A stretch of 64,000 bases of DNA from an uncultured Gammaproteobacteria bacterium (lineage in GTDB: Bacteria > Patescibacteriota > Patescibacteriia > UBA1558 > 2-01-FULL-52-15): contig CAYOCJ010000001.1 in assembly GCA_964402565.1 (NCBI GenBank), forward strand, positions 568,823 to 632,822, written 5' to 3'. Both the position numbers and the translations under genes were made by a program. The notes below the pieces were generated by a model. It was not told the origin of the DNA. It made no database searches and saw nothing but the letters and a program-made list of their open reading frames with translations. Numbering within the stretch: position 1 is the stretch's first letter; each line of letters begins with the position of its first letter. Below, in pieces: positions 1,525 to 47,536 of this stretch.

Positions 1525-1530
1525 GTGAGT

Positions 1531-4525: not shown

Positions 4526-4529
4526 CGGG

Positions 4530-5723: not shown

Positions 5724-5729
5724 ACTCGT

Positions 5730-13873: not shown

Positions 13874-13876
13874 ACC

Positions 13877-18640: not shown

Positions 18641-18642
18641 AG

Positions 18643-19263: not shown

Positions 19264-19288
19264 AGAGATAGTATATCACGCGCGCATC

Positions 19289-20551: not shown

Positions 20552-20562
20552 AACAAGTTTTT

Positions 20563-21771: not shown

Positions 21772-21772
21772 A

Positions 21773-23446: not shown

Positions 23447-23458
23447 GGCATTGTTTCA

Positions 23459-30842: not shown

Positions 30843-32183
30843 TTATAACTGCTCGATGACCGAGCGCAATTCTCGCATATGACTGCCTTCGTACTCTTCT
30901 CGTGTAATATGCGCAGCTGCATACAATGCATTCAGCGGCTTGCTGTCTTTCACCTGGTAATGACGAGGATAATGATATTCGATAGGTCCATTGTCGAGCA
31001 CGATAATGTGCTGCCGCTGGAGATAATCTCTTAGTGCCTGATCATTGCCATGGCTTCGGAATCCGCCTTGCACCGCAAGCGCCGCCAATGCGTCGTGATC
31101 AAGCATCACCGTATACGGAATATGAAAAATCTTCATCAGTTCAATATAGACATCGATATTGCTCTTACCATGGACATGTATCACCTTGATATCATCCGGC
31201 CCCTGATAAAACCGGTCAATCAAACCGCGCATCAAGATCCGGTCAGACACTCCCTCGACAAGCAGGACCTTATCGGCGAAGAACATTTCCAGATTATCAG
31301 CGTTCAGCTCCTGCACGAGTCGCTCCTGATCAAATTGACTCGGGTTTTGAGCGAGTGAATATACGTGACTACCGTCAGCATCTTTGAGCACACGATACAC
31401 TTGCCGCAATGTATACGCGGTCACAAATAAGGGTGAATGCGTCGTCATGATGATCTGGCAGGTTGCCCTGCTGCTCAGAATCTTGAGCAGCTTCTTGATC
31501 ATACCCGGATGTAAGTGGATTTCAGGCTCATCGATCATGACGATGGAGTATTCAGGATGCAGCGCATACAGCAAAATGACTAGCACACGCCGAAAGCCGC
31601 CGCCAAGCCGGTCGATCGTAATGCTTTTTGGCCCTACTGATACTGAACCAAATCCGGCAGATGAATCATCCACAATACTATTGATGCTTTCAACTTCCGG
31701 GAAATGGTCATGCAATAGATTTGTTAATACACCGAACTGCTGCGGGTATTTTTGAGCAAAAGAAGTATAATCTTTTTCTATCTGAAAAAAATCAGAAAAA
31801 TCCTCATACCTGAGCATTTTACACCTGCGGCTCAAGGTGGTCATTAACTCTGGTGAAAGTTTCCGCGAATGATCATCAGACGCATTGACTTCATAGTGCG
31901 TGCCTTTGAAGAAGACGCGCTGGCCGCCATGCAGCAGATCCTGGCCATGCGATCCTAACTCCAGCGTCATCATGATCTCAGAACGATAGTGGTGTAGCCG
32001 GGTAGGAGACAACTCTGGATGCAAAACAAAATCTATGGCGTCCAGAATATTGGTTTTGCCGCAATTATTCGGGCCAATAAATACATTAAAATTCGGCGAA
32101 AGCGGTATGCTGACGGGGTGAATAAAGCTCTTATAAGACCCTATCCAGAGATCCGAAATGACCATGCAACAAGTATAGCACAC
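30843..32183 (-). CDS. OLD-family (overcoming lysogenization defect) ABC-type ATPase with C-terminal TOPRIM nuclease domain; candidate anti-phage defence nuclease
   Basis: 446 aa. Walker A FIGPNNCGKTNILDAIDF, signature-like LGGGFRRVL, Walker B with the OLD/AAA_21 hallmark IVMIDEPEIHLHP, H-loop MTTHSP. TOPRIM-like VLLVEGVSDRIL and VMLDHDALAA (DxD). The likely true start is a few codons downstream (MVISDLW). Confidence 0.7.
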   Translation of the reverse strand: MCYTCCMVISDLWIGSYKSFIHPVSIPLSPNFNVFIGPNNCGKTNILDAIDFVLHPELSPTRLHHYRSEIMMTLELGSHGQDLLHGGQRVFFKGTHYEVNASDDHSRKLSPELMTTLSRRCKMLRYEDFSDFFQIEKDYTSFAQKYPQQFGVLTNLLHDHFPEVESINSIVDDSSAGFGSVSVGPKSITIDRLGGGFRRVLVILLYALHPEYSIVMIDEPEIHLHPGMIKKLLKILSSRATCQIIMTTHSPLFVTAYTLRQVYRVLKDADGSHVYSLAQNPSQFDQERLVQELNADNLEMFFADKVLLVEGVSDRILMRGLIDRFYQGPDDIKVIHVHGKSNIDVYIELMKIFHIPYTVMLDHDALAALAVQGGFRSHGNDQALRDYLQRQHIIVLDNGPIEYHYPRHYQVKDSKPLNALYAAAHITREEYEGSHMRELRSVIEQL

Positions 32184-32251: not shown

Positions 32252-33598
32252 TTACCTGATAAAAAACGAGCCCAAAATCCTAATATGTTCGCCTATGGCC
32301 TCAACCGCATGGATGTGAACATAGAATGCGCTCGCGACAACCAGGATAAGTGCCAGCGCATTCAGAATGATATGCGCATGCTGTACCTTGATCTTTACGA
32401 CGATATTGACCAGCAATAATCCAACCAAAGATAGTAAGAATACAAATAAGAAACGGTCAGCCCATGCAATAGCGTGCTGCAGCCACGTCCCTTTGCTCAG
32501 GACAACGCCGGTCTTGAACTGGTCAACGATCTGTCCCTGTTCATTGGTCACCGCTTCACCCAAGACTTCTATCTCAGGCTGCAATGCTGCAAGCGTAGCA
32601 GGATCCAATCGAGTCGGCTCTGCCGAAGGTTGTCCGGTAACGGTTGTTGGATTTGGCTGAACGACCGGCTGCGGTGCTGGCGCAGGTTGAGGCTGCGTTA
32701 CGATAGGCGTTGGAGCTGGTGCCGGTTTCGGAGCTGGCTGCGGAGTCGGTTTCGGCTTCACGACCGGCTGCGGTGCTGGCGCAGGGGTTGGCGTTGGCGC
32801 AGGCACAGGAGTCGGCGTTGGCTTTACTTCAGCCACTGGCGCGGGAGGCGTGTCAGCAGACACAACCTTGGTGACCGGTTGCTTCTGTGTGCCAAAAAAT
32901 ACAACCATCAGATTCGTCTGATGCCCGTCCAAATTACCGCTTAGTGTAGCAATACCGATCTCTTCATAGGCAGCATTCAGCAAATTTTTGTCATGCGTCG
33001 GGCTAGCCTGAAACGCTTTGAAAACTGAGTTTGCGGTAAGAAAATCCATGCCAAGGTTCTCACCCATTGCTTTAAAATCATAGCGAGCCGGATCCAGCCA
33101 CTGCCACGGTTTCTTGCCATCCGGGCCATAGTGGCTGAAATAATTCTCAGCGATCATGTCATTGCCTTTCGCCGTTGCTGCTTCTTCAAGATATGAGTTC
33201 ACGGCGAGTTCATGCCCTCCCCGCTCGACCCGGTATTGATTGATGAGCGTATACATCTGTGAGCGAATATCCTGCTCCAGTCGTCCGAGATTCGGATAGA
33301 GCACGAATAAAGTCGAGATCAAAGCGACTTTAATAAAGACGACCAACAGCATGATGTGCTTTACTGAACGAGCCTGAAAGACTTTTGGCTGATAGCCATT
33401 ACGCTCATGCGGTATGACAAAATCAACCAGCGCTCGCGATGCCGTATGCAGGCGCAGTGAAAAGATCTCACTTAGTTTGTCGCGTTCTTCTTGAGGCATA
33501 TGACGATACATAATCCAACTCACCAAAGCTGCACCGCTGAACAATAACTTGATCAATGGGTGATGCTTATGCGGTTTATTATCTTCAGTATTGCCCAT
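32252..33598 (-). CDS. Membrane protein with extracellular CAP/SCP/PR-1-like domain and a proline-rich (PAPxP) linker
   Basis: 448 aa. CAP-like region GHELAVNSYLEEAATAKGNDMIAENYFSHYGPDGKKPWQW...ENLGMDF...AYEEIGIA. ~70-aa low-complexity linker PTPTPVPAPTPTPAPAPQPVVKPKPTPQPAPKPAPAPTP. TM helices at both ends. Confidence 0.6.
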   Translation of the reverse strand: MGNTEDNKPHKHHPLIKLLFSGAALVSWIMYRHMPQEERDKLSEIFSLRLHTASRALVDFVIPHERNGYQPKVFQARSVKHIMLLVVFIKVALISTLFVLYPNLGRLEQDIRSQMYTLINQYRVERGGHELAVNSYLEEAATAKGNDMIAENYFSHYGPDGKKPWQWLDPARYDFKAMGENLGMDFLTANSVFKAFQASPTHDKNLLNAAYEEIGIATLSGNLDGHQTNLMVVFFGTQKQPVTKVVSADTPPAPVAEVKPTPTPVPAPTPTPAPAPQPVVKPKPTPQPAPKPAPAPTPIVTQPQPAPAPQPVVQPNPTTVTGQPSAEPTRLDPATLAALQPEIEVLGEAVTNEQGQIVDQFKTGVVLSKGTWLQHAIAWADRFLFVFLLSLVGLLLVNIVVKIKVQHAHIILNALALILVVASAFYVHIHAVEAIGEHIRILGSFFIR

Positions 33599-33636: not shown

Positions 33637-33662
33637 AGCAGAGCTTACTAACAGGGCTAACC

Positions 33663-34307
33663 TTAGAGCTGTACAGGATATGCTTCGACTACAATACGAT
33701 TTTTACTCGTAAATTTGGGCGTGCAGCTGAATAAGGTCAGCTTTGGAGTCTTGGTATTTGCAAGGATGTCTACCTTGCTTGGTTTCACGATCGAGACTTT
33801 AGCTACAGCGTAATGATACTCCTTGCCCTCCCATGTCAGAGAGATAGGATCGCCGACCTTCATTTTGTCGATGTCCCAGAATGTTTTTGTACTTGGAGGA
33901 CGCCACATGTATCGATGTGCAGAGATCACCGTATTGCCGCCCTTTGCAGGCGTAGATGTGCCAGGCACATGCCATAAACCCTTGTTCAGAGTTTTTTCGC
34001 TTTTTCCTTCTAGCACGGCACTGTTCACGCCCATGCGGGAAACTACCAGAGTGTTCGTCACTTGTTTAACCGGCGGCTTTGTCGGAACAATTACTTTCTT
34101 CACCGTAGCAGCCTGAACAACCGGCACAGGGAATGAAAGATTCTGTGAAGTCACCGTTGCTGTTACCGCTTGCTCATCTTCGTTCGCATATGTCTGCAAA
34201 GCTGCATGAGCGCCGAGTACACCTACGCCAAACCCTGCTGCTAAGGCGAGTAGCGAGATGACCGCTACGAAGCGGACTGAGAATTTATTGCGATTGTCGA
34301 TAGGCAT
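33663..34307 (-). CDS. Sortase (transpeptidase, sortase family)
   Basis: 214 aa. N-terminal TM anchor. Catalytic His region GGNTVISAHRYM (cf. sortase NTVLAGHR), Cys motif LTLFSCTP (cf. LTLITCTP), downstream Arg NRIVVEA. Confidence 0.75.
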   Translation of the reverse strand: MPIDNRNKFSVRFVAVISLLALAAGFGVGVLGAHAALQTYANEDEQAVTATVTSQNLSFPVPVVQAATVKKVIVPTKPPVKQVTNTLVVSRMGVNSAVLEGKSEKTLNKGLWHVPGTSTPAKGGNTVISAHRYMWRPPSTKTFWDIDKMKVGDPISLTWEGKEYHYAVAKVSIVKPSKVDILANTKTPKLTLFSCTPKFTSKNRIVVEAYPVQL

Positions 34308-37300
34308 AAAAGAATGAGCTTATTGAAGTCGAGATAAAGAGAACTGTCAAGACTAATAGCCAAGCGCCGACATTTTCGCCACCGGTATCCGGCAATGTCT
34401 TGAATGGCGCTTCAACACCCAAGACGACTGGTTTGAAGACCTGTACATTGACCGAATCTTCGACCGGCTGGCCATTTCGAATGGTTGCGGTCGCGTGATT
34501 GACATAGGTACCCGTTGCTACTGAATTATCAATATGCACCGCATAGGTAGTTGTCTGTACCGAGCCGACGCTCATCGGAGCAAAGTCCCATGTCTTGAAT
34601 CCAGTGCCACCGTCAACGAAGGTAAAGCCAGATGGCAATGTGTCTGATAATTTAGGATCATACGCAACCGTGTTGCCTGTATTCTTGATCACAACCGTAT
34701 AGGTAACAGTGTCGCCAGCTTCTACGGTGTTTTTATCTACGGTCTTATCGATAGAGATGGTAGGTACTGAGAAGAATCCTCCGCCACCACCGCCTCCTCC
34801 TCCACCTCCGCCACCACCGCCACAATTTGATGTGCATGATGGATTCGAATTTGAAGGCGTCACACATTGGCCATCGCTGTTAACTACCATACCCTCAGGC
34901 ACGGTGCTTTGAACACCATCGATATTCGGACACATGTCGGTCGGCGGCACCGGTTTCGGTGCATTGAATGCTACACAGTAGTAGGTATTTCCAGCTGAGA
35001 CAGCTTCAATATTGTCATAGTTGTCATAATGGTTCGTATCCTTATGGCAATAGATCTCAGCAGTTACATTATCTGCATTAGGACTTTGCGGCGGATAGGT
35101 GAACGGAATGTAGCCATCCTTTAATACTTCACGAACCCACAGCGATGGAGCTCCTTCAAGGTCGCTGATCGTTGCAGTAGCGACGCCTTCGGCATTAGTA
35201 ACACCGAACGTTTTCCAGTCGCTATAGTTCGTACCGGTAGTAGTATTTGGTCCGCAATAGGGTGCATCGCACATACCAGTAGAATCTCCGGCAGCCGTAG
35301 CCTCACCTATGAAGTCGCCTTTTAATTTATCAACGCCTTCCTGGCCGTCCTTATCGCCGAAACCCCATTGGAAGTTCCAATCAGGAGTCAGGTAGCAATG
35401 CGGATGATCTGCAATAAAGGCTGCTGATGTAGTTGAGGTAATATTCGGCATGCCAGTTTCTCCCCAATTCGGGAGGTCTGCTTCTGAATCGCAGACGATC
35501 TTTGTAGCAATGACGGAGACCGGCTCTATCGTACATTGCGATGAGCAGCCATCACCATTTGCAGTATTTCCGTCATCACAGGCTTCACCAGCTTCCATGA
35601 TGCCGTTTCCGCATTGCGGGCCGGTAACTGGCGGCTGGAAGTTAGCCAGTTTGCATTGATAATCAGATGAACCGTCAGCAAGTATGGTGCAGGAGCCGGT
35701 AACCGGAGTCCAGCCATCTTGCATAACCTCGCGGACCATATAGTCCCCTTGTTCTAAGTTATTGAAGCAATATCCGGTATCGGTAGTAACCGCAGTATCT
35801 ACCAGCGTATAGGGATCATCACCGCAGGTATAGGTCCAGCCATGGCCTGTAATAGCGAGACAGTTTTCATTATCCTGGAGTATTTTTTTATTCTTTATGG
35901 TTTCATCGCTGACGCCGGAAATAGTGTCAGTAATTGAACCGATGATATTTGAGATAATGCTTGGCGCATTTTTCTTATAGAGCTGAATGGTCCAGCCAGA
36001 GAGGTTCTCTTCACCTGGATCCTGAACCGCATTTTGGTTCTTATCATTGAATTTAACTCCGCAAATATTCGAAGTATTCGTTGCCTGCAACGTGCATTGC
36101 TCGGTACAAACCTGATGATCGCCGACGCCGTCAGTGCCATCGCATTGTTCGTCGCCATTCTTGACGCCATCACCGCAATACGGGACAGCCTCTATTTGGC
36201 ATTGATCAGTACAGATTTGATGATCGCCGACGCCGTCTGTGCCATCGCATTGCTCATTAGCATTTTTGATATGATCTCCACAGTATGGAAGATCCTGAAT
36301 AGTGCATTGCTGTGTGCAGGATTGATGATCGCCAACGCCGTCAGTGCCATCGCATTGTTCGTCGCCATTCTTGACGCCATCACCGCAAAAATCGGTACAG
36401 ATCAAGGTGCATTGCAGTGTGCAGGATTGATGATCGCCAACGCCGTCAGTGCCATCGCATTGTTCGTCGCCATTCTTGATATTGTCGCCACAGTACGGGA
36501 CATTCTCCAGAGTGCATTGGCTCGTGCAGCTTTGATGCGGGCCGACGCCGTCAGTGCCATCGCATTGTTCAGTGCCCTCTTTCACATGATTACCGCAGCT
36601 TGGAGCTATGATAGTCGTAGGCTCATCAACGCATACCCAGCGATTATACTCCTGAGTCCAGAAGCATGCGCGGTTATTCAGCACATCTCCGTTCACGACA
36701 GACTCAGACACATGCATCTTGATATGGACTTCGTTTATCTCGCCAGGCGGCACTTCACCGAAGTTCCAATGGTTATTACCATCGACTGGTGACGGGATGC
36801 TTGAGATATAGGATGTACGATTGTCGTAGTACTCTTTGATCTCAACTCCCCCGCCGGTGCAGTAACCGGTGCCGGTATTTGTAAGGCGTAATGTGTAGGT
36901 CAATTCAGAACCAGGCGCTACCGGATCAGCACTATCTGTTTTAACGAGTTCCATACGGCAGAATGGTTCAAGCTTACAATACTTGTTGCATCCGTCGCCG
37001 TTATTGTTATTGCCATCGTCACACTGTTCTGCTTTACCTTCTCCGTTCGGATTTTGTATCGTTCCGTCGCCGCAATAGCTGAGATTTTCAAGCGTGCACT
37101 GGCTCGTACAACGCTGATGCGGACCGACACCGTCTGTGCCGTCACATTGCTCAGTGCCTTCTTTCACATTATTTCCGCATTGAGCTGCGTAAATACATTG
37201 AGGCTTTTTTGGATTTTCAGTTTCGTAAAAAGTATATATGCGTTCACCGATCGTTGCCGAATCCTGCAATTGCTGCAAGGTGGCAGAACCATCAGCCATA

Positions 37301-37893
37301 ACTTGCTCGAGTTTTGTCAACGCTTGTTTGATCGTCGACTGGTCATTCAAGTTCAACCTATCAAAAGCAGAATCGCCATTATCACCGCCTGAAACCAAAG
37401 CATTCAATTGCAAATGGCCTGCGGCAATATTCGATTCATCAGCTAACAAAAATTGGCTCAGCTTACAGCGAGTAGCCGGAATGTCTCCTCCGCTGCAAAC
37501 GGTAGCTAATTCGGTACAGATCTGGCTTGCTCCAATACTGGAGTATACGCCTGAGAAATACTGTGATGACATATTCCTGATCTGCGTCTTCCAGACGCTT
37601 TCGCCGGTGCCATTATGGCAGCCATCATTATTTTTATAATAGCCCTTTGACTTTGCATCACAGGCAGGCCCTGAAGAACTCGTGGCCAGCGCCAGGGACG
37701 TCAATTTGCTCAAAATCCCCGTACTGCCTGCAGCACGATAGACCAAAGGTGATGCCATTGGTAAAACAATATTCACGCTCAAAAAGATGACAGCTATTGT
37801 TTTAAGTAATGATTTCTTACGCATAGGCTTATTTTTTACCCTATAATTTTGCTTAAAATTAGGCTTTTTTAATGGGAAATTAATAAATAACAT
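34285..37893 (-). CDS. LPXTG cell-wall-anchored surface protein: signal peptide, multiple Myxococcus-type cysteine-rich repeats (CGDG...EQCDDGN...GDGC), poly-Gly linker, DUF11-like beta domain, LPDTG sorting signal
   Basis: 1202 aa. Repeats such as YCGDGVKNGDEQCDGTDGVGDHQSCTQQCT and CGNGIMEAGEACDDGNTANGDGCSSQCT. CGGGGGGGGGGGGGGGFF tract. TYTVVIKNTGNTVAYDPKLSDTLPSGFTF (DUF11-like). C-terminal FKTLPDTGGENVGAWLLVLTVLFISTSISSFFYAYRQSQ (LPXTG, hydrophobic segment, charged tail). Stop overlaps the sortase start. Confidence 0.8.
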   Translation of the reverse strand: MLFINFPLKKPNFKQNYRVKNKPMRKKSLLKTIAVIFLSVNIVLPMASPLVYRAAGSTGILSKLTSLALATSSSGPACDAKSKGYYKNNDGCHNGTGESVWKTQIRNMSSQYFSGVYSSIGASQICTELATVCSGGDIPATRCKLSQFLLADESNIAAGHLQLNALVSGGDNGDSAFDRLNLNDQSTIKQALTKLEQVMADGSATLQQLQDSATIGERIYTFYETENPKKPQCIYAAQCGNNVKEGTEQCDGTDGVGPHQRCTSQCTLENLSYCGDGTIQNPNGEGKAEQCDDGNNNNGDGCNKYCKLEPFCRMELVKTDSADPVAPGSELTYTLRLTNTGTGYCTGGGVEIKEYYDNRTSYISSIPSPVDGNNHWNFGEVPPGEINEVHIKMHVSESVVNGDVLNNRACFWTQEYNRWVCVDEPTTIIAPSCGNHVKEGTEQCDGTDGVGPHQSCTSQCTLENVPYCGDNIKNGDEQCDGTDGVGDHQSCTLQCTLICTDFCGDGVKNGDEQCDGTDGVGDHQSCTQQCTIQDLPYCGDHIKNANEQCDGTDGVGDHQICTDQCQIEAVPYCGDGVKNGDEQCDGTDGVGDHQVCTEQCTLQATNTSNICGVKFNDKNQNAVQDPGEENLSGWTIQLYKKNAPSIISNIIGSITDTISGVSDETIKNKKILQDNENCLAITGHGWTYTCGDDPYTLVDTAVTTDTGYCFNNLEQGDYMVREVMQDGWTPVTGSCTILADGSSDYQCKLANFQPPVTGPQCGNGIMEAGEACDDGNTANGDGCSSQCTIEPVSVIATKIVCDSEADLPNWGETGMPNITSTTSAAFIADHPHCYLTPDWNFQWGFGDKDGQEGVDKLKGDFIGEATAAGDSTGMCDAPYCGPNTTTGTNYSDWKTFGVTNAEGVATATISDLEGAPSLWVREVLKDGYIPFTYPPQSPNADNVTAEIYCHKDTNHYDNYDNIEAVSAGNTYYCVAFNAPKPVPPTDMCPNIDGVQSTVPEGMVVNSDGQCVTPSNSNPSCTSNCGGGGGGGGGGGGGGGFFSVPTISIDKTVDKNTVEAGDTVTYTVVIKNTGNTVAYDPKLSDTLPSGFTFVDGGTGFKTWDFAPMSVGSVQTTTYAVHIDNSVATGTYVNHATATIRNGQPVEDSVNVQVFKPVVLGVEAPFKTLPDTGGENVGAWLLVLTVLFISTSISSFFYAYRQSQ
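34775..34835 (-). repeat. In-frame (GGN)n simple-sequence tract encoding about 15 consecutive glycines
   Basis: Plus strand ccgccaccaccgcctcctcctccacctccgccaccaccgcc (purine/pyrimidine-skewed triplet repeat). Coordinates approximate. Confidence 0.7.
36090..36610 (-). repeat. Tandem ~114-nt coding repeats (about 4.5 copies) encoding the Cys-rich CGDG...EQCDGTDGVGDHQxCT modules
   Basis: Repeated DNA units gattgatgatcgccaacgccgtcagtgccatcgcattgttcgtcgccattcttga... visible by eye. Further degenerate copies occur near 37000-37200. Confidence 0.7.
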
Positions 37894-37947
37894 AGAAAAA
37901 TACCATATATCTATGGTATTGTCAAGGGGGGGGCACTATATAATCGA

Positions 37948-39303
37948 TCAATAGGGCAAAATAGTCCCCAATTGCTTCATGTCGGTTATCTTTTCAGCTA
38001 TGATCTTCTCAATATTGAAGGTGCCGAATTTGGGAGCTTCTATAAAGCCCTGAAGTGCTGCTTCGGCAAGCCAGCCGCTGTCCAACCAGTCAAAAAGCCA
38101 CTCTGAGGTATAGTCCGGGTCTTCTTGATATGCCCCGCAACCGATTGATTCTACCCAAAGCCGGTTAAATCGCTCCTGCGAGCCGATGGGAGGCGCTATG
38201 ACCAGCGGAATACCGAGTGCAGCGTAAAAGCTCAGTTCAGATGGCTTGGTCCACAGAATATCAGTTGTCCGCAAAGCTTGGTCGAATTTCTTGAAGTACT
38301 CGAATTTCGAATTTGCGAACACGATATGGATATGCTTATCAAGCTCATGCATCAACCCCATGGAGCGGACCGCATCATTGAAAAACTTGCTGACTTCATT
38401 ATGTATCCCTGCAACCATGGTAAAACTTATCTGGTGTTGAAGGATCTTATTTTTTAAGCTCCTCAAAATTTGAACAGCTAGTTCGCGTTGTGCTCCTGCA
38501 CCGCCGACGGGGAAGGTGAGCGTTAATGGATGCAGCGAGTGACGCGGCAATGCGTGAGCACCCAAATGCTCTTTGACGGTCTCATGGTACTGCTTATAGT
38601 AATTTCTTTTCGGATCAAGATTCACGAGGCGGTAAAGAATATCCTGTTTCAGGCGTGTCAATCGATCATTGCCCAAATTTTCTAATGGCAATGGAAATCC
38701 GGTAAGAAAAATATTATCTTCTTTGATGCCGTAGAGCTTGAGGCGATTTGCGACGCGATAGGTCGGCGCAAAATAGCGTATGCGAGAACGAGAAGGGTAT
38801 TGCGGCACCCACGCGCGGCTGATATCAGTATCCGTCGCTAAGCAGTATATGTCTCCCGGATATTCGAAATGCTCAGCCATGAATGCAGGAATGAAGAACG
38901 TGCAGATTAACGGCAATGGTTTTTTTGAAAGTTTTTCGATCAAATGCTTGCCCCAATTTGAATTGCGGATCAGCGACATGATCTGCGTCACCTGCAAAGT
39001 CGGCGCTGAGAGATCGCGCTTCGGATAGAATGGCGGTATGCTCTGCAGGGTATCGTACAACTCGAACACCTCTTCGCCGATCAAAGGAACTTGTTTGAAG
39101 CGTGAGATGAATTCATAGAAGCGGCGCGAGTTCCGCCAAATTTTCCGATCATGCACGGGGATGCCAGGGTAATTATTTGCATTCAAAATATCGCCCTCGG
39201 CGAGATACCTCAAAGGAAATGCAGCACGCTGATGCCCATATCCCATATCGACGCTGATGACCCATGCTTTCGGGTGTGTATGTGTTTTTGTTTCCTCCTG
39301 CAT
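37948..39303 (-). CDS. GT-B glycosyltransferase, MGDG-synthase / UgtP (GT28)-like, putative glycolipid synthase
   Basis: 451 aa. N-terminal VISVDMGYGHQRAAFPL resembles the MGDG_synth G-x-GH-x-x-A motif. C-terminal ILWTKPSELSFYAALGIPLVIAPPIGSQERFN resembles the GT-B nucleotide-sugar-binding half. Confidence 0.5.
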   Translation of the reverse strand: MQEETKTHTHPKAWVISVDMGYGHQRAAFPLRYLAEGDILNANNYPGIPVHDRKIWRNSRRFYEFISRFKQVPLIGEEVFELYDTLQSIPPFYPKRDLSAPTLQVTQIMSLIRNSNWGKHLIEKLSKKPLPLICTFFIPAFMAEHFEYPGDIYCLATDTDISRAWVPQYPSRSRIRYFAPTYRVANRLKLYGIKEDNIFLTGFPLPLENLGNDRLTRLKQDILYRLVNLDPKRNYYKQYHETVKEHLGAHALPRHSLHPLTLTFPVGGAGAQRELAVQILRSLKNKILQHQISFTMVAGIHNEVSKFFNDAVRSMGLMHELDKHIHIVFANSKFEYFKKFDQALRTTDILWTKPSELSFYAALGIPLVIAPPIGSQERFNRLWVESIGCGAYQEDPDYTSEWLFDWLDSGWLAEAALQGFIEAPKFGTFNIEKIIAEKITDMKQLGTILPY

Positions 39304-39312
39304 ACTACTGTA

Positions 39313-39639
39313 TCACCATAGATACAAACTTATTCTCCACAAGAGATAGCCGCTGCTGATGCCGACAATATTGGTCGTCATATCGTACCAATCAAAGTGA
39401 TCGCCAGGGCGCATCATATCGTGCAGTTCCTTGGCTACGCCGAGCAAAATGACCGCCGGAAGCACCAGCAAGCTATTCCAGATCAACAGGCCGAAAAAAG
39501 TTAATGCCAGAGATGCGGTAAAATGAACTGTTTTATCGTAGCGGCCGAAATAGACGCCTTTAAAAAAATCCAATAGCGTAGTCATGTCGTCATAATTATA
39601 ACATAAAAAAACAGCCCGTAGGCCTAGCTTACCTAGCAC
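39313..39639 (-). CDS. Small membrane protein, VanZ-like family (tentative)
   Basis: 108 aa, 3 TM. AKELHDMMRPGDHFDWYDMTTNIVGISSG resembles the VanZ E-x-H...R...D...N...G pattern. Confidence 0.4.
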   Translation of the reverse strand: MLGKLGLRAVFLCYNYDDMTTLLDFFKGVYFGRYDKTVHFTASLALTFFGLLIWNSLLVLPAVILLGVAKELHDMMRPGDHFDWYDMTTNIVGISSGYLLWRISLYLW

Positions 39640-39647
39640 GCAGCGTA

Positions 39648-39842
39648 CTAGACAGCAACCGGAGTTTCCGGCGACTTTTTTTCCTGCTCCTCTACTTTCT
39701 TTGCATGTTCTTCGATGGCCGCTTTGGTGATGTCATGAAAAGGATTGTCAGTGTATTCTGACATGAGCTTTTGGTACTCTGGATCAGGATTCGGCTCCTT
39801 GGTCACGAGCGGCTCTAATGATGGATTGACGGTGTCTGACAT
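39648..39842 (-). CDS. Small acidic hypothetical protein
   Basis: 64-aa ORF, no recognisable domain; tightly packed between genes. Confidence 0.25.
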   Translation of the reverse strand: MSDTVNPSLEPLVTKEPNPDPEYQKLMSEYTDNPFHDITKAAIEEHAKKVEEQEKKSPETPVAV

Positions 39843-39882
39843 AGTATCGAAACACTACCACAATGTACGCAGTTCCTGCAAC

Positions 39883-40344
39883 CTATGCATACCGGTCGAC
39901 GCGGAAGCAGAAAAATAACAAAATGCTGATCAAAAGGAAAGCAACGAATGACATCAGCGGTATCGTAATGAAGCCCAAGAAGCTGATGTCGATGGTCGAG
40001 CATGCTATGCTGCCTTTCGTGCAGTTAATGAAGGAGTTCTCTGCTGCCGGTTTATACATCTGTATGAGATAGTGATATCCGGCGATAATCGCTCCTATGC
40101 AGCTCATCGGTAAAATATATTTCGGAAAATTCGCATCACGCAACCGAAGCGCAACGACAGACAGCAGGACGATCGGGTACATCAGGATGCGTTGATACCA
40201 GCAGAGCTCGCAAGGCGTGAGTCCAACGATCTCGCTGAAATACAGACTGCCAAGCATTGCAGTCGCAGAAATGAGAAGAACGCACAAATATAAATTTCGT
40301 TTCGACAATACTCTCATACGTGTTTCAAGTATAGCATAGAACAT
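39883..40344 (-). CDS. Disulfide bond formation protein B family (DsbB/BdbC-like thiol-disulfide oxidoreductase)
   Basis: 153 aa, 4 TM. Signature GLTPCELCWYQRILMYP (cf. BdbC PCVLCWYQRICMYP) and a second Cys pair NCTKGSIACS. Confidence 0.75.
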   Translation of the reverse strand: MFYAILETRMRVLSKRNLYLCVLLISATAMLGSLYFSEIVGLTPCELCWYQRILMYPIVLLSVVALRLRDANFPKYILPMSCIGAIIAGYHYLIQMYKPAAENSFINCTKGSIACSTIDISFLGFITIPLMSFVAFLLISILLFFCFRVDRYA

Positions 40345-40379
40345 GCGCTGATAATAGTTCAGGGCCCAGATATCACGTG

Positions 40380-40860
40380 TGTAATACCTGGGCCCTAGTC
40401 GCTTGGGATCAGTGCTCCTGCATGGGGAAATTCTCCCCCATCAGGATGCGATTTGCTTCATCCTCCAGCTCTTCGTCCCTGAGGACGCGCTCGTCGTCAT
40501 CCGACGGGGTCTCGCTCTGAACGAGATAGAGATGGGGATTGCCGGGTTCGACGAGAAGGTCAGGATGGGCGTCCAGGAGTTGATCGAGACTGGTCTCGTG
40601 GCCATTGTTGCCTTCGGCATCCCAGTGACGTACGAATCGTGCGCCTTCCCCGATGCGCCGATGCGCACAGGGTATGCCCTGCGATCCTTCGCCGGCCATG
40701 GCTGACGCCATGGAAAGCATGTCTCCGGGAAACCGGGGGTTGACGCCGCTGGCGCCAAGCATGTAGCCGACTTCGACCCGTTCTGCGCCTTCATCCAAAA
40801 GTTCTCGTTGCTCGACTGTCAATCGATCCCTCAGCATACCGTTCCTCCTCCTTTTTTCGT
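40380..40860. other. Compositionally anomalous high-GC (~58-60%) island of ~480 bp in a ~42-46% GC context; contains mutually overlapping ORFs on both strands (40403..40705 + and 40409..40837 -)
   Basis: Direct inspection of base composition versus flanks. Third-codon-position GC is ~75% in the plus frame (TTG start) and ~65% in the minus frame (ATG start), so the coding strand is ambiguous. Confidence 0.5.
40409..40837 (-). CDS. Hypothetical acidic protein encoded in the high-GC island (strand/frame uncertain; alternative is + 40403..40705)
   Basis: 142-aa ORF with ATG start. No recognisable motif; very acidic C-terminus. Confidence 0.25.
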   Translation of the reverse strand: MLRDRLTVEQRELLDEGAERVEVGYMLGASGVNPRFPGDMLSMASAMAGEGSQGIPCAHRRIGEGARFVRHWDAEGNNGHETSLDQLLDAHPDLLVEPGNPHLYLVQSETPSDDDERVLRDEELEDEANRILMGENFPMQEH

Positions 40861-40955
40861 AGCATCCACTACCAGAAAACGGTTGACTTAACGATACGCC
40901 GTTTTTTTAACTTGTCAATACATTCTAAACATGGTCTGGTTTTTCAGCAGATATT

Positions 40956-41507
40956 CTAGCGAATTTTATCAAGAATGTGCCTACTCTCGTCAGGGTTAAA
41001 CCCTTTTAACGCTAACCATGCATACACCTTGGAGTTTATTTGGTATTTCTTTTTTGGATCAGCTCCGTATTTCTCGTGAAGTCTCTGGTATTTGATCTTT
41101 GCAGCCGAGGTAATCTTTTCTAAATCCTGCTTTCCGCCATTTTCCTCAAATTCTTTTAACACGTCGTCAACAATGTGCATTGGAAGCTTGCGAGACATCA
41201 TTTTCCTGCGAATAACCCGCATACCGTCTTTTTTATCTTTCAATAGCTCGAAGAGGCGAGCAGCATACTTTCTATCGTCAACCAGCCCCTGCTGGCACAG
41301 TTTCTCAACTACTTTCTGAGCATTTTCCTTAGTATAAAAAACATAGCGGATCGTATCAGGGTACAATTTTTTTAGCCGAACGATTCGGTCTACCAGACGC
41401 TTTTCAGAAACTTCGCCATCGGCAAGCCAGGCGAGCATCTTTTGATAGATATGCTGAAGGTCAGGATCGTCGAATGTTTGCCGATCTGTCATAGAGAGAT
41501 TATACAC
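40956..41507 (-). CDS. recX: RecX-like regulatory protein (RecA regulator family)
   Basis: 183 aa. All-helical, with three-fold repeated ~45-aa helical modules and a basic/acidic pattern typical of RecX; weak motif-level match. Confidence 0.5.
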   Translation of the reverse strand: MYNLSMTDRQTFDDPDLQHIYQKMLAWLADGEVSEKRLVDRIVRLKKLYPDTIRYVFYTKENAQKVVEKLCQQGLVDDRKYAARLFELLKDKKDGMRVIRRKMMSRKLPMHIVDDVLKEFEENGGKQDLEKITSAAKIKYQRLHEKYGADPKKKYQINSKVYAWLALKGFNPDESRHILDKIR

Positions 41508-42149
41508 CAGATCCTAAAATTATTTTGCAAGTCGATGTTAAATGATATAATTACCTTAGAAACGTTAGCTAAGTACAGAGAAAAAAGCCGTCATAAAAAA
41601 GTTTTTTAAAAAAATACACAGGCAGAAAACACAAACCATAGAATAAAAAATGAGCGCCGTCGGTTTCCAAAAACGGCTCTCAATACGGTGTAAGACTAAG
41701 ACCAAAATAAAGCTTATCAACTTAGACCTACATCACTATGGCTACTATCAAACGATGGTTCAAACGGTTTCGAAAAAATGATTGGGATGAAAATCTCCGG
41801 CTGTACGGATTAAAATAGTAATGAACGTTCTTTCAAAAAAACGTACGTGTGAAGCTTGAAAAGCGATCACAGGTGCTCAACATAGGACGATGCGTAGGAG
41901 TGATTATGGATTTATGTACCAGTTTCGAGAGCAATCATGGTCCAAACTCTGTTCCCTGTCGGGAAAATGTTTCGTTAGAAAACAAATCAGAATGTGCTCT
42001 TTGCGAGCACAGTGAGGTGAGTCAGATGCGGAATAGCACGCGGCGCATGAGAATCGAAGACGAATTGGTCACAACATCTCATGGCCTACTCCCCATGACT
42101 CTATGGGCAGGGGGCTAAGTAAGATCGCCCCCTCCCAAATTCAAAACAT

Positions 42150-42299
42150 ATGACATACGAAAATCAAGCGCTCGTAACTAATATCTTATTCATTCTAGAA
42201 GGTGCGGTGCTTTTAATTGCCGCGAATTGGGCCGGTTGGATGATACTGTCTATCGGAGGGCTTATGATGATTGAAACGATCAGAATTAGATCCATTTGA
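42150..42299 (+). CDS. Possible 49-aa small hydrophobic protein inside the long non-coding stretch (speculative)
   Basis: Manual translation MTYENQALVTNILFILEGAVLLIAANWAGWMILSIGGLMMIETIRIRSI*. One or two predicted TM segments; no Shine-Dalgarno. Confidence 0.2.
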   Translation: MTYENQALVTNILFILEGAVLLIAANWAGWMILSIGGLMMIETIRIRSI

Positions 42300-42388
42300 T
42301 GCCCAGGAAACAAACACCAGCGCAGATTGGCAATCGCCCTTTAATTCATTTATAGTTAGTGTGTGTTTAAAAAAAATTTAACGCACTG

Positions 42389-43141
42389 ATGAAACATCTC
42401 GTTGACATAACCTACGAAACCTATACAAGCGGCGCTATAACCGTGCCTTGCGTTATTGCCCAACCAAAAGAGAGCGGATCCTATCCCTGTATTATTTATA
42501 ATCGCGGAGGTAATCGGGAATTTGGAAAAATTACCCCTGCATATGGCGAATATTTAGTAGAAAGAATTGCTTCATGGGGATATATAGTTGTTGCATCTCA
42601 ATATCGCGGGCTTATTGGTGAAGAAGGTGCCGACGAATTTGGCGGGGCAGATGTTGATGACGTAGTCAATCTAATTAGCGTGCTTAAAAGCTTACCAAAT
42701 GCAGACACACAGCGAATTGGGATGTTTGGCTGGAGTCGTGGAGGCATGATGGTTTACCTGGCTTTGAAAAAAATGCATTTCATCAAAGCAGCTGTCTCAG
42801 TTGCAGGAGTTGCTGATTTACTAGAAACTGCGAAACGCCGGCCTGAAATGAAAAAAATATTTGAAGAGCTGATCAGCACCGGACCAGACCTGGAAGAAAA
42901 ACTCAAGGAACGCTCAATAGTATACTGGCCTGAGAAGCTACCAAAAGTACCGCTACTCCTCATGCATGGCACCGCTGATTGGCGTGTCAACTATGAACAA
43001 AGTGTACAGCTTGCAAACGAGCTCACAAAACGTAACTTTCCTGTAACTCTCAAATTATTTACCGGGGGCGATCATGCCCTGACAGACTATGATGATGAAG
43101 TTTGGAAAATGACAAAAGAATGGTTTGAAAAATATGCTTAA
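42389..43141 (+). CDS. Alpha/beta hydrolase of the prolyl-oligopeptidase (S9) / dienelactone-hydrolase type
   Basis: 250 aa. Nucleophile elbow GWSRGG (GXSXG), LLMHGTADWRV (Asp region), C-terminal GGDHAL (His). Confidence 0.7.
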   Translation: MKHLVDITYETYTSGAITVPCVIAQPKESGSYPCIIYNRGGNREFGKITPAYGEYLVERIASWGYIVVASQYRGLIGEEGADEFGGADVDDVVNLISVLKSLPNADTQRIGMFGWSRGGMMVYLALKKMHFIKAAVSVAGVADLLETAKRRPEMKKIFEELISTGPDLEEKLKERSIVYWPEKLPKVPLLLMHGTADWRVNYEQSVQLANELTKRNFPVTLKLFTGGDHALTDYDDEVWKMTKEWFEKYA

Positions 43142-44354: not shown

Positions 44355-44484
44355 CGGATTGAAATTAAATTTTTTTTCGACATTTGAATTCCGTTGTAAC
44401 GAAAACAGGGCTATCAACGGCATTCAAGAAATAACTCTTGACTGTCTGTGCTTGTTCTTTGACAGGCGATAAAGGACGGAAGCG

Positions 44485-46614: not shown

Positions 46615-46622
46615 CGTCACTA

Positions 46623-46660
46623 ACCCTGCATTGCGAAAGCGATGCAGGGTTATCTTTTTG
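46623..46660 (+). terminator. Rho-independent terminator of the M23 peptidase gene
   Basis: ccctgcattgcgaaagcgatgcaggg imperfect hairpin (8-10 bp stem) followed by ttatcttttt. Confidence 0.5.
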
Positions 46661-46668
46661 TAATAGCA

Positions 46669-47531: not shown

Positions 47532-47536
47532 ACGAA

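What the first reader, a model, noticed from the sequence alone, without database searches (positions are those of the whole stretch)
33663..40344. Sortase, LPXTG Cys-repeat giant substrate, glycolipid GT and DsbB/BdbC oxidase: a coherent surface-protein anchoring and oxidative-folding island
The sortase gene overlaps the stop of a 1202-aa protein that ends in LPDTGG, a hydrophobic helix and a charged tail. The substrate carries more than ten Myxococcus-type cysteine-rich repeats (about 4 Cys each). Two genes downstream is a DsbB/BdbC-family membrane oxidase (CELCWYQR motif), which would be needed to oxidise so many extracytoplasmic cysteines. The Myxococcus-type Cys-rich repeat is unusual outside Myxococcota. 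Its combination with a DUF11 domain, a (Gly)15 hinge and sortase anchoring suggests a novel adhesin.
Basis: partly seen in the sequence, partly recalled or inferred. Interest (0 to 1): 0.6.

Follow-up and report, generated by a model that had tools for sequence, protein, structure and literature searches.

The report
Sortase–adhesin gene pair in CPR bacterium
An uncultured ultra-small (Patescibacteria/CPR) bacterium carries a two-gene unit, a giant cysteine-rich surface protein plus the sortase predicted to attach it to the cell wall; this is ordinary equipment for the group, and the neighbouring disulfide-oxidase and glycosyltransferase genes are conserved neighbours, not part of the unit.

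Summary
The genes are real. The sortase (33663-34307, minus strand) overlaps by 23 nt the end of a 1179/1202-aa secreted protein that ends in LPDTGG, a hydrophobic helix and YRQSQ. A BdbC-type DsbB and a DUF6938 GT-B glycosyltransferase lie upstream. Three details need correcting. There are 8 cysteine repeats, not more than 10. The tail carries a single Arg. The repeat type is common in CPR, not special to Myxococcota. The organism is a Komeilibacteria-like Patescibacterium.

Comparative data split the proposed island in two. The giant-protein/sortase pair, with its own promoter-like site, is a clean 4.3-kb presence/absence unit (33637-37949). The two closest relatives found keep DsbB, small ORFs, GT, CAP and OLD in the same order but have no giant protein or sortase between GT and CAP. 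In 19 of 24 patescibacterial loci that carry this sortase type, a large homologous LPxT[G/S/N] protein sits directly beside the sortase. None of the 39 related loci has a DsbB within 10 kb.

Best reading: a dedicated sortase/substrate pair that anchors a modular, disulfide-rich, fibrillar-adhesin-like protein. DsbB acts, at most, as a general unlinked oxidase. CPR sortases, cysteine-rich giant proteins and disulfide machinery are already described, so this is a new member of a known kind and of modest interest.

The parts
37897..37925 (-). Promoter-like site of the cassette (TTGACA, 17-nt spacer with TG, TATTTT), just after the GT stop codon
   Evidence: (10 of 12 matches, extended -10), sequence. 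This is a consensus match only; the number of such sites in the region is not above shuffled expectation. The CAP gene has a similar site of its own at 33636-33608.
34285..37824 (-). Giant secreted LPXTG protein. 1179 aa from M24; the longest ORF starts at 37893 and gives 1202 aa. It has 59 Cys, all N-terminal to the Gly hinge.
   Evidence: The M24 start was chosen by an independent gene call on Logan contig L049 and lies downstream of the promoter-like site.
37726..37824 (-). Signal peptide (MRKKSLLKTIAVIFLSVNIVLPMASPLVYRAAG)
   Evidence: Read from the sequence: basic N-terminus followed by a hydrophobic core. No predictor was run.
37180..37662 (-). N-terminal helical domain with six Cys in the window protein (aa 78-238), unannotated and possibly the functional tip
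   Evidence: No Pfam hit. The AF2 model is all-helical with mean pLDDT 65, and no significant fold match was found. The family has only 92 clusters among 1.84 billion representatives. It co-occurs with LTD, DUF4215 and SdrD_B.
36964..37182 (-). Cys-rich repeats 1-2 (4 Cys each)
36598..36960 (-). Internal DUF11/CLIPPER-like domain (aa 312-432)
   Evidence: PF01345 scores 33.4 bits against a cut-off of 24.6 on the fragment
36082..36603 (-). Tandem array of Cys-rich repeats 3-7, a derived CDGTDGVGxHQxCTxQC subtype. At DNA level it is a 105-nt tandem repeat of 4.6 copies.
   Evidence: The Logan contig breaks inside this array at 36450, so the copy number is not independently confirmed.
35626..36081 (-). 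SdrD_B / SpaA (prealbumin-like, CnaB-type) domain, aa 605-756
   Evidence: PF17210 scores 37.1 bits (cut-off 29.7) and PF17802 scores 23.8 (cut-off 23.1) on the fragment
35521..35619 (-). Cys-rich repeat 8, canonical DUF4215/TIGR02232 type
34894..35517 (-). Unannotated beta-sandwich domain (aa 793-1000) with conserved Cys
   Evidence: No Pfam hit. Shared with 9 other proteins. The AF2 model has pLDDT 73.6 and pTM 0.70. Its weak best fold matches are Gram-positive pilin CnaB-type domains (SpaA 5f44, GBS52 3phs; E about 1e-4, TM 0.25-0.38).
34777..34821 (-). (Gly)15 hinge
   Evidence: mixed GGN codons. A poly-Gly tract of 7-16 residues sits at the same position in the orthologous proteins of 4 relatives.
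34444..34776 (-). C-terminal DUF11/CLIPPER domain, free of Cys
   Evidence: PF01345 scores 55.2 bits on the fragment. Lys1050 aligns with the Lys that, by my count of the printed 9IFR alignment, is the isopeptide Lys715 (PMC12617251). This domain is 37-41% identical to the C-termini of the relatives' large proteins.
34288..34395 (-). Cell-wall sorting signal: LPDTGG, a hydrophobic segment, then YRQSQ
   Evidence: Relatives have LPDTGG (L047) or LPDTS, LPNTS, LPDTN, LPETG, LPATG.
33663..34307 (-). Sortase, 214 aa, with an N-terminal membrane anchor. It overlaps the giant gene by 23 nt.
33637..37949 (-). The whole presence/absence cassette: promoter-like site, giant gene and sortase
   Evidence: blastn against L041/L042 shows homology ending at 37950 and resuming at 33636, while only 12 bp separate the corresponding points in L041. 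L043/L044 also lack the cassette.
39883..40317 (-). DsbB/BdbC-type membrane thiol oxidase. It belongs to the conserved backbone, not the cassette. It is a candidate trans-acting oxidase.
37948..39303 (-). DUF6938 GT-B glycosyltransferase, part of the conserved backbone
   Evidence: PF22053 scores 53.7 bits. It has only weak partial similarity to UgtP and MGD1.
32252..33598 (-). CAP/YkwD-like membrane protein with a Pro-rich linker. It is the conserved right-hand neighbour of the cassette site and has its own promoter-like site.
   Evidence: It follows the sortase cassette in many loci, and it remains in place where the cassette is absent.

Best explanation
Window 33637-37949 is a self-contained two-gene unit in a Komeilibacteria-like Patescibacterium (CPR). 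It encodes a giant modular surface protein and its dedicated sortase.

Proposed mechanism:
1. The protein is exported by Sec through an N-terminal signal peptide. This is inferred from the sequence.
2. Its 59 cysteines lie in eight four-Cys repeats and in the intervening domains. They are oxidised to disulfides outside the cytoplasm, plausibly by the DsbB/BdbC-type oxidase encoded about 2 kb upstream together with an unidentified DsbA-like partner. This step is inferred, and the oxidase is not dedicated to this protein.
3. The C-terminal LPDTGG, hydrophobic helix and short tail hold the protein in the membrane. The membrane-anchored sortase, whose gene overlaps the substrate gene and may therefore be translationally coupled to it, would cleave after the Thr and join the protein to peptidoglycan precursors. 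This is inferred from the family's established chemistry. The catalytic His-Cys-Arg triad is shown to be conserved.
4. The mature protein would be a fibrillar-adhesin-like stalk. From the wall outward it consists of a cysteine-free CLIPPER/DUF11 domain, a Gly15 hinge, then CnaB-like and DUF11 beta-sandwiches alternating with disulfide-knotted repeats, and finally an unannotated helical domain at the tip. It probably mediates attachment to a host cell or a surface.

The unit is variably present at a conserved site between the GT and CAP genes. Its domains are shuffled among CPR proteins, as expected for a fast-evolving surface determinant.
For: - Family assignments and the catalytic triad.
- The 23-nt gene overlap and the unique LPDTG C-terminus.
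- Adjacency of this sortase type with a large homologous LPxT[G/S/N] protein on the same strand in 19 of 24 patescibacterial genome loci, and in L047 and L050-L053.
- One genome (JAZDLR01) holds two such sortase/substrate loci, as expected for dedicated pairs.
- The clean 4.3-kb indel relative to L041/L042, and the absence of the pair in L043/L044.
- A promoter-like site of its own.
- The conserved C-terminal module (Cys repeat, poly-Gly, DUF11, LPDTx) in orthologues.
- The mosaic of modules shared with different CPR proteins.
- The weak pilin-like fold match for the unannotated beta-sandwich domain.
- Peptidoglycan-related genes in the window (a YkuD L,D-transpeptidase and an M23 peptidase).
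- Literature: a sortase family is present in more than half of CPR genomes, and disulfide machinery is enriched there (PMC6744442). Large Cys-rich extracellular proteins with Myxococcus-type repeats, a disulfide-formation protein and a sortase were noted in Peribacteria (PMC4736985). DUF11 is CLIPPER, an isopeptide stalk domain of fibrillar adhesins (PMC12617251).
Against: - The sortase reaches no curated class model. Class E scores 79.6 and class C 78.7, both against a cut-off of 160.
- The C-terminal tail has one basic residue, and no Gram-positive anchor HMM is among the hits returned.
- The middle 1.46 kb of the giant gene (34988-36449) appears only in this assembly. The repeat copy number could be wrong, although the 105-nt period keeps the reading frame.
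- The giant protein has no near-identical entry in the 5.8-billion-protein collection, although its neighbours from the same contig do.
- Nothing here shows that CPR sortases attach proteins to peptidoglycan or that this protein binds anything.
- The N-terminal domain has no recognisable fold.
- The closest backbone relatives lack the cassette, so it is dispensable.
Confidence: 0.75

Rival explanations
1. DsbB, the GT, the giant protein and the sortase form one functionally coherent anchoring and oxidative-folding island, in which the oxidase and the glycolipid GT are dedicated to this substrate.
For: - The genes lie within 6.7 kb on one strand.
- A protein with 59 extracytoplasmic Cys needs an oxidase, and DsbB has both Cys pairs.
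- There is a precedent for a disulfide machine coupled to sortase-dependent assembly, in Actinomyces oris (cited in PMC6744442).
Against: - DsbB and the GT stay together, and stay next to CAP, in relatives that lack the giant protein and sortase.
- None of the 39 sortase-centred loci has a DsbB within 10 kb.
- The GT is near the sortase in only 5 closely related loci, and unrelated genes (LexA, DinB, a C39-like peptidase) separate them.
- The cassette and CAP each have a promoter-like site of their own.
- No DsbA partner is present in the window.
Confidence: 0.1
2. The sortase is a pilus-type (class C-like) polymerase. It would link the giant protein to other subunits to form a covalent fibre rather than only anchoring it to the wall.
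For: - The nearest solved structures by sequence are class C pilus sortases (8gr6, 4g1j and 3rbi, E about 1e-13, against 1e-5 for SrtA).
- Many relatives encode a second, small (about 190 aa) DUF11-LPxTG protein just upstream of the sortase plus the large protein downstream. That layout resembles a pilin-plus-adhesin gene cluster.
- CnaA/CnaB-type domains are typical of pilins.
Against: - The class C model scores 78.7 against a cut-off of 160, no better than class E.
- Neither a DPW/DPF/DPY lid motif nor a C-terminal membrane helix is visible in the sequence.
- The window has only one LPXTG protein and no small pilin-like partner.
- A 1179-aa multidomain protein is atypical for a shaft pilin.
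Confidence: 0.08
3. The long ORF is an assembly artefact. Repeats would have joined a Cys-rich gene to an unrelated DUF11-LPXTG gene, so the sortase's true substrate would be only the small C-terminal module.
For: - Independent short-read assemblies break at 36450 and at 34987 inside the gene.
- The protein is missing from the large protein collection.
- Relatives do have separate small DUF11-LPxTG genes.
Against: - Logan contigs L001 and L002 run from aa 969 through Gly15, DUF11, LPDTGG and the sortase without a break, so the junction of the Cys-rich body with the anchor module is independently assembled.
- The C-terminal module is orthologous to the C-termini of the relatives' large proteins (37-41% identity), not to the small proteins (about 25%).
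- The same Cys repeat, poly-Gly, DUF11, LPDTx order occurs in four relatives.
- L047 has a protein of more than 1253 aa with 69 Cys that ends in LPDTGG directly before its sortase.
Confidence: 0.03

Closest known systems
Sortase with an adjacent LPXTG surface protein in Gram-positive bacteria (housekeeping or dedicated sortase/substrate pairs, MSCRAMM-type and fibrillar adhesins)
   Same: - A membrane-anchored sortase fold with the His-Cys-Arg triad.
- A substrate with a signal peptide, a stalk of CnaA/CnaB-type beta-sandwiches, and a C-terminal LPxTG, hydrophobic helix and basic residue.
- The enzyme and substrate genes are adjacent and overlap.
   Different: - The host is a Patescibacterium (CPR).
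- The sortase belongs to none of the curated classes A-F by NCBIfam cut-offs.
- The active-site motif is TLFSC rather than the usual TLxTC.
- Relatives use LPDTS, LPNTS or LPDTN as often as LPxTG.
- The stalk is interleaved with disulfide-knotted DUF4215 repeats and has a poly-Gly hinge.
Large cysteine-rich extracellular proteins of CPR bacteria (Peribacteria; Anantharaman et al. 2016, PMC4736985)
   Same: - Very large, signal-peptide-bearing, Cys-rich proteins with weak similarity to Myxococcus Cys-rich repeat proteins.
- Their genomes also encode a disulfide-bond-formation protein and a sortase.
- They were proposed to act in attachment and to vary between strains.
   Different: That paper noted these features at genome level. 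Here the Cys-rich protein itself carries the sorting signal and is physically paired with its sortase, in a different CPR lineage (Komeilibacteria-like), and the pair behaves as an indel unit.
CLIPPER (DUF11) isopeptide stalk domains of fibrillar adhesins (PMC12617251, PDB 9IFR)
   Same: There are two PF01345 domains. Lys1050 aligns with the Lys that, by my count of the printed alignment, is the isopeptide Lys715 of 9IFR. The wall-proximal position fits a stalk role.
   Different: Only 2 CLIPPER domains are present, not a long tandem stalk. The isopeptide Asn and the catalytic Asp were assigned by motif only and were not modelled. The anchor is a sortase signal rather than an OmpA-like domain.
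MdbA/VKOR oxidative folding coupled to sortase-assembled pili in Actinomyces oris and Corynebacterium (cited in PMC6744442)
   Same: Concept: exported Cys-containing sortase substrates need an extracytoplasmic thiol oxidase that is re-oxidised by a membrane protein.
   Different: - Here the membrane component is a DsbB/BdbC homologue, not VKOR.
- No MdbA/DsbA-like partner is present in the window.
- Gene linkage to the sortase is not conserved.
Bacillus subtilis BdbC (DsbB family, NF002849)
   Same: A protein of about 140 aa with 4 hydrophobic segments, a CxxC in the first outer loop and a second Cys pair. It is 47-50% identical to Bacillales 'disulfide oxidoreductase' proteins and scores just above the subfamily cut-off.
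   Different: No adjacent BdbD is present. The electron acceptor is unknown. From general knowledge, CPR bacteria usually lack quinone synthesis; this was not tested here.

Membership tests
Sortase (PF04203 / TIGR01076) | HMM score above the curated cut-off | tested here: met
   PF04203 scores 92.2 against 26.6, and TIGR01076 scores 69.8 against 39.35
Sortase (PF04203 / TIGR01076) | Catalytic His, Cys and Arg conserved | tested here: met
   H131, C195 and R204 are invariant in an alignment of 18 homologues
Sortase (PF04203 / TIGR01076) | Transpeptidase activity on the LPxTG motif | not testable with these tools
   Needs a peptide-cleavage or transpeptidation assay
Class C (pilus) sortase | NF033745 above its cut-off; a lid with a DP[WFY] motif; a C-terminal membrane helix | tested here: not met
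   The score is 78.7 against 160. No lid motif or C-terminal helix is visible in the sequence. The nearest PDB sequences are class C, but only at E about 1e-13.
Class E sortase | NF033747 above its cut-off; LAxTG-type substrates | tested here: not met
   The score is 79.6 against 160. The substrate motif here is LPDTG. NCBI names one relative 'class E sortase', but the curated cut-off is not reached.
LPXTG cell-wall-anchored protein | LPxTG pentapeptide within about 35 residues of the C-terminus, followed by a hydrophobic helix | tested here: met
   LPDTG at aa 1167-1171, then GENVGAWLLVLTVLFISTSISSFFYAY. It is unique in the window and conserved in orthologues.
LPXTG cell-wall-anchored protein | Positively charged tail, or a match to an anchor HMM (PF00746 / TIGR01167) | tested here: inconclusive
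   The tail YRQSQ has one Arg. Relatives have 2-4 basic residues. No anchor HMM was reported at E<=0.1 (Pfam) or E<=0.01 (NCBIfam).
DUF4215 / TIGR02232 cysteine-rich repeat | Repeat HMM above its cut-off; four-Cys unit | tested here: met
   TIGR02232 scores 84.2 against 20.8, and PF13948 scores 33.3 against 27. Regex and a custom HMM find 8 units, of which 2 are canonical and 6 a derived subtype.
DUF11 / CLIPPER isopeptide domain | PF01345 above its cut-off | tested here: met
   The fragments score 55.2 and 33.4 bits against a cut-off of 24.6
DUF11 / CLIPPER isopeptide domain | Lys-Asn isopeptide pair with a catalytic Asp | tested here: inconclusive
   Only the Lys (K1050) is aligned to 9IFR. 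The Asp (LSDTLP) and the Asn (VNHATA) are motif guesses, and no structure was predicted for this domain.
DsbB / BdbC | PF02600 and the BdbC-type subfamily model above their cut-offs; CxxC plus a second Cys pair; four membrane segments | tested here: met
   PF02600 scores 70.7 against 22.1, and NF002849 scores 125.6 against 124, which is marginal. C45-x-x-C48 and C108/C115 are present, and four hydrophobic segments can be read in the sequence.
DsbB / BdbC | A DsbA/BdbD-type partner and a quinone acceptor | tested here: not met
   No thioredoxin-fold protein was found among the ORFs of at least 130 aa (plus a few shorter ones) of the 64-kb window scanned against Pfam. The rest of the genome could not be searched, and quinone use is not testable here.
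Glycolipid (diglucosyl-DAG / MGDG) synthase | Equivalog HMM above its cut-off, or full-length similarity to UgtP or MGD1 | tested here: not met
   NF010135 scores 31.7 against 500. A profile of 8 orthologues matches UgtP (9wde) at E=1.5e-6 over only 60 residues, and MGD1 at E=0.63. The protein does belong to PF22053 (DUF6938), 53.7 against 27.
Functionally linked gene island (conserved neighbourhood) | The components co-occur across related genomes | tested here: not met
   Sortase plus substrate: yes, in 19 of 24 loci. DsbB with sortase: 0 of 39 loci. The DsbB/GT backbone exists without the cassette.

The most novel reading that the evidence does not exclude
Patescibacteria may possess their own, so far unclassified sortase clade (TLFSC active site; LPDT[G/S/N] signals). 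Each enzyme would travel with one giant, domain-shuffled, disulfide-knotted adhesin as a swap-in/swap-out cassette at a conserved envelope-gene site (GT|CAP). These cassettes would determine which host cell an episymbiont can attach to. The unannotated helical tip domain with six Cys (92 clusters among the representatives searched) would be the host-recognition module.
Probability: 0.25. Interest if true: 0.55.

Novelty: new member of a known kind. Interest (0 to 1): 0.3.

Why it matters
CPR/Patescibacteria are thought to live attached to other microbes. The molecules studied so far for attachment are mainly type IV pili. A wall-anchored giant adhesin with its own sortase is a plausible second attachment system, and its presence or absence between close relatives could relate to host range. 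That would give experimentalists a concrete, small target: one enzyme, one motif and one tip domain. The general ingredients are already in the literature for CPR: sortase, Cys-rich Myxococcus-type repeat proteins and disulfide machinery. The main value of this analysis is therefore to correct the picture. The functional unit is the two-gene cassette, not the four-gene island.

Tried and rejected
1. Fusion idea. I considered that the giant protein arose by fusing a relatives' large Cys-rich protein to their small DUF11-LPxTG protein across the Gly15 tract. This is rejected. The C-terminal module is 37-41% identical to the large proteins' own C-termini and about 25% identical to the small proteins. 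The poly-Gly hinge is also conserved in the large proteins.

2. A DsbA/BdbD partner. Pfam scans of the ORFs of at least 130 aa (plus a few shorter ones) found none. The small ORFs next to DsbB are acidic and have no CxxC. Small CxxC proteins flagged near sortases in relatives turned out to be ribosomal proteins L31 and S4, MsrB, or spurious ORFs.

3. DsbB near related sortases. phmmer and tblastn found nothing in 32 loci.

4. Recent horizontal transfer of the cassette. There is no GC anomaly (0.476 against 0.46-0.47 in the flanks), and GC3 is only slightly lower. I looked for no flanking repeats or mobility genes beyond the annotation, and the plasmid collection gave no match. Gain and loss cannot be told apart.

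5. Fold of the N-terminal domain. The model has low confidence (pLDDT 65), and the best PDB match has E=0.19, which is meaningless.

7. Rfam found nothing in the window.

8. Sortase class. No curated class model is reached.

Full report
**What is there**

On the minus strand the window carries, in transcription order:
- a RecX-like gene (40956-41507);
- a 142-aa ORF;
- DsbB (39883-40344, probably starting at M10, 40317);
- a 64-aa acidic ORF (39648-39842);
- a VanZ-like ORF (39313-39639);
- a DUF6938 glycosyltransferase (37948-39303);
- the giant ORF (34285-37893);
- the sortase (33663-34307);
- a CAP/YkwD-like membrane protein (32252-33598);
- an OLD/GajA-like ATPase (30843-32183);
- three unannotated genes;
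- a Che-like module and a type IV pilus gene set.

Family assignments:
- The sortase is secure. PF04203 scores 92.2 bits and TIGR01076 scores 69.8, both above cut-off. His131, Cys195 and Arg204 are invariant in 18 homologues.
- DsbB passes PF02600 and, narrowly, the BdbC-type subfamily model NF002849 (125.6 against 124). It has both Cys pairs.

**The giant protein**

The sortase start codon lies 23 nt upstream of the giant ORF's stop. The giant ORF ends in LPDTGG, a hydrophobic segment and YRQSQ. This is the only canonical sorting signal among all six-frame ORFs of the window. The probable start is M24 (37824). An independent gene call uses it, it begins a classical signal peptide, and it lies downstream of a TTGACA-17-TATTTT promoter-like site at 37925-37897.

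A regex and a custom HMM both find exactly eight four-Cys repeats, not more than ten. Two are canonical DUF4215/TIGR02232 repeats. Six belong to a derived CDGTDGVGxHQxCTxQC subtype, and five of those form a 105-nt tandem array. The repeats hold 33 of the 59 cysteines. The other 26 lie in the intervening domains, and none lies after the Gly15 hinge.

Domain order:
- signal peptide;
- unannotated helical domain with six Cys;
- two Cys repeats;
- DUF11;
- five Cys repeats;
- SdrD_B/SpaA-like domain;
- one Cys repeat;
- unannotated beta-sandwich domain;
- Gly15 hinge;
- DUF11;
- sorting signal.

The unannotated beta-sandwich was modelled at pLDDT 73.6. It weakly resembles the CnaB-type domains of Gram-positive pilins. 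The helical N-terminal domain gave a poor model and no fold match. Its family has only 92 clusters among 1.84 billion representatives, has no Pfam model, and always sits in extracellular-type architectures.

DUF11 has recently been characterised as CLIPPER, an isopeptide-bonded stalk domain of fibrillar adhesins (PMC12617251). Lys1050 aligns with the Lys that, by my count of the printed alignment, is the isopeptide Lys of PDB 9IFR.

**Whose genome**

The sortase, GT and CAP proteins occur on a 633-kb NCBI contig and in Logan assemblies of SRR12313479 and SRR12313480. The nearest named relatives are Candidatus Komeilibacteria, in the Parcubacteria/Patescibacteria group. The gene content fits: type IV pili without a secretin among the ORFs scanned, a YkuD L,D-transpeptidase and an M23 peptidase. 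Several related MAGs are labelled 'uncultured Gammaproteobacteria', yet they share this Komeilibacteria-type synteny. I take those labels to be errors. That is an inference.

**Independent support for the assembly**

Logan contigs are identical to the window over 36450-49303 (GT into the giant gene's 5' end) and over 28891/30295-34987 (from aa 969 through Gly15, DUF11, LPDTGG, the sortase and CAP). Only 34988-36449 is unique to this assembly. The breaks lie in or near the repeat array, so the copy number is uncertain, but the frame and the junction with the anchor module are not. The giant protein has no near-identical entry in the 5.8-billion-protein collection. I could not explain this.

**Is the sortase/substrate pair conserved? 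Yes**

A scan of one genome per species with the sortase alignment gave 32 loci, of which 24 are patescibacterial. In 19 of those 24, a protein of at least 890 aa that is homologous to the giant protein lies immediately beside the sortase on the same strand. In 17 it has a clear LPxT[G/S/N] signal, and in two a variant (LEDTG, LGLTG). Of the other five loci, one sits on a truncated contig, two are labelled Saccharibacteria and two are unnamed. Five further contigs show the same pairing. One of them is L047: a protein of more than 1253 aa with 69 Cys and 13 repeats that ends in LPDTGG, then the sortase, CAP and OLD, exactly as in the window. One Komeilibacteria genome has two such loci. The C-terminal module (Cys repeat, poly-Gly, DUF11, Pro-rich spacer, LPDTx) is conserved in the orthologues.

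**Is the four-gene island coherent? No**

The closest DsbB homologues were traced to their contigs. L041 (DsbB 80% and GT 89% identical) and its co-occurring Logan copy L042 have the order DsbB, 65-aa ORF, 90-aa ORF, GT, CAP. L043 and L044 (Komeilibacteria RIFCSPLOWO2 type) have DsbB, small ORFs, GT, CAP, OLD, 314-aa, 340-aa and 154-aa genes, then MCP. That is the window's backbone without the giant protein and sortase.

blastn shows homology to L041 ending at window 37950 (the GT stop) and resuming at 33636 (the -35 element of the CAP promoter-like site). Only 12 bp separate the corresponding points in L041. The difference is therefore a clean 4313-bp unit, 33637-37949.

Other Komeilibacteria-like relatives fill the same GT-to-CAP interval with about 10 kb: a C39-like peptidase, LexA, DinB, a small DUF11-LPxTG protein, the sortase, a large Cys-rich LPDTS protein and a second Cys-rich protein. 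None of the 39 sortase-centred loci contains a DsbB homologue.

Backbone proteins are 80-89% identical to their nearest known relatives. The nearest sortase is 57% identical and the nearest giant homologue 41% over a third of its length. GC content gives no sign of recent transfer, so gain and loss cannot be separated.

**The other claims**

- The GT belongs to DUF6938 and is a GT-B enzyme. Its only similarity to glycolipid synthases is partial: NF010135 scores 31.7 bits against 500, and a profile of 8 orthologues matches UgtP (9wde) at E=1.5e-6 over 60 residues. 'Glycolipid GT' is possible but unproven.
- The Cys repeat is not unusual outside Myxococcota. The search returned 1276 homologues at E<=1e-10. 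Of the few best hits that carry a source name, several are named Patescibacteria (Falkowbacteria, Komeilibacteria), others Myxococcota/Polyangia and one Woesearchaeota. NCBIfam now calls the model simply 'cysteine-rich acidic repeat'.
- The giant protein is a mosaic. Each of its modules recurs in different combinations in other proteins.

**Mechanism**

The proposed sequence is Sec export, extracytoplasmic disulfide formation, retention by the C-terminal helix, sortase cleavage at LPDT|G, and transfer to the wall. Disulfide formation would plausibly use DsbB plus an unidentified DsbA-like protein, since none is present in the window. This follows from the established chemistry of these families and is inferred, not shown. 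The sortase fits no curated class. Class E scores 79.6 and class C 78.7 against a cut-off of 160, and the nearest solved structures are class C. A pilus-type role therefore cannot be excluded, but with a single substrate, no lid motif and no partner pilin in the window it is less likely.

**Comparison with the literature**

- Méheust et al. 2019 report a sortase family in more than half of CPR genomes, and an MdbA-like oxidoreductase with VKOR enriched in CPR (PMC6744442).
- Anantharaman et al. 2016 describe large, Cys-rich, signal-peptide-bearing proteins with weak similarity to Myxococcus Cys-rich repeat proteins in Peribacteria. They also note one disulfide-formation protein and a sortase, and they propose attachment and strain variation (PMC4736985).
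- I found no paper that analyses CPR sortase substrates as such.

The finding is therefore a well-resolved new member of a known kind. The additional points made here are the physical pairing, the indel behaviour at the GT|CAP site, the LPDT[G/S/N] signal spectrum and an unannotated tip domain.

**Verdict**

Novelty: new member of a known kind. Interest: 0.3.

Noticed in passing
window 32252-33598 (minus strand); L011, L012, L013, L016-L019, L021, L023, L026, L041, L043, L047: A CAP/YkwD-like protein with an N-terminal membrane segment, a Pro-rich linker of about 120 aa and C-terminal membrane helices. It directly follows the sortase cassette in many Patescibacteria and stays in place, with its own promoter-like site, where the cassette is absent. 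Its role is unknown, and it might be an envelope partner.
   Followed up: partly
window 37180-37662 (giant protein aa 78-238): An unannotated helical domain with six Cys in the window protein. It has no Pfam model and only 92 clusters (at 50% identity) among 1.84 billion representative proteins. It often sits near the N-terminus of 250-450-aa proteins and co-occurs with LTD, DUF4215 and SdrD_B domains. No fold match was found.
   Followed up: partly
window 34987 and 36450: Logan assemblies from SRR12313479 and SRR12313480 end at 34987 (contigs from both runs), and a SRR12313479 contig ends at 36450; both points lie inside the giant gene. The cause may be repeat-induced breaks or strain-level variation (domain swapping). 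The giant protein also has no near-identical entry in the 5.8-billion-protein collection, although its neighbours do.
   Followed up: partly
window 30843-32183 (minus strand): An OLD-family ATPase-TOPRIM protein (PADLOC Old, 129 bits; GajA-like) with no recognisable GajB-type partner. It is conserved downstream of CAP, together with three unannotated genes (314, 338 and 153 aa), in all close relatives.
   Followed up: partly
window 9831-27937 (minus strand): A long co-directional block. It contains a Che-like module (MCP, CheW, an Hpt-HATPase kinase, and a response regulator with a zinc ribbon) followed by PilB, PilC, several pilin-like proteins including a 1587-aa one with Ig-like domains, and PilM.
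   Followed up: no
L011/L003, L012/L004, L016/L006, L018/L008, L013, L019, L010, L017: These relatives carry a two-substrate version. A protein of about 190 aa (signal peptide, DUF11, LPxT[G/D]) lies just upstream of the sortase, often overlapping it. Downstream lie the large LPDTS/LPNTS protein and a third Cys-rich protein (436-680 aa) that has no sorting signal. The layout resembles a minimal pilin-plus-adhesin cluster.
   Followed up: partly
L011, L012, L013, L018, L019 (between GT and the sortase cassette): A LexA-like (Peptidase_S24) and DinB-like (IMS) gene pair, plus a C39-like peptidase, lie in the variable interval between the GT and the sortase cassette.
   Followed up: no
window 1-6000 and 42001-44000: GC content drops to 0.35-0.39 and 0.41 respectively, against 0.46-0.50 elsewhere. 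The first stretch holds an asparaginase-like gene, two 7TM-histidine-kinase genes and an aminotransferase.
   Followed up: no
window 54893-55633, 63079-63987, 44485-46614: A YkuD L,D-transpeptidase fused to bacterial TSP3 repeats, a second TSP3-repeat protein, and a 709-aa M23 peptidase. These indicate a peptidoglycan wall with calcium-binding-repeat envelope proteins.
   Followed up: no
L010, L012-L019, L023, L024, L039 (record titles): Several TPA MAGs titled 'uncultured Gammaproteobacteria' share Komeilibacteria/Patescibacteria-type synteny and proteins with the window. The taxonomic labels look wrong.
   Followed up: no
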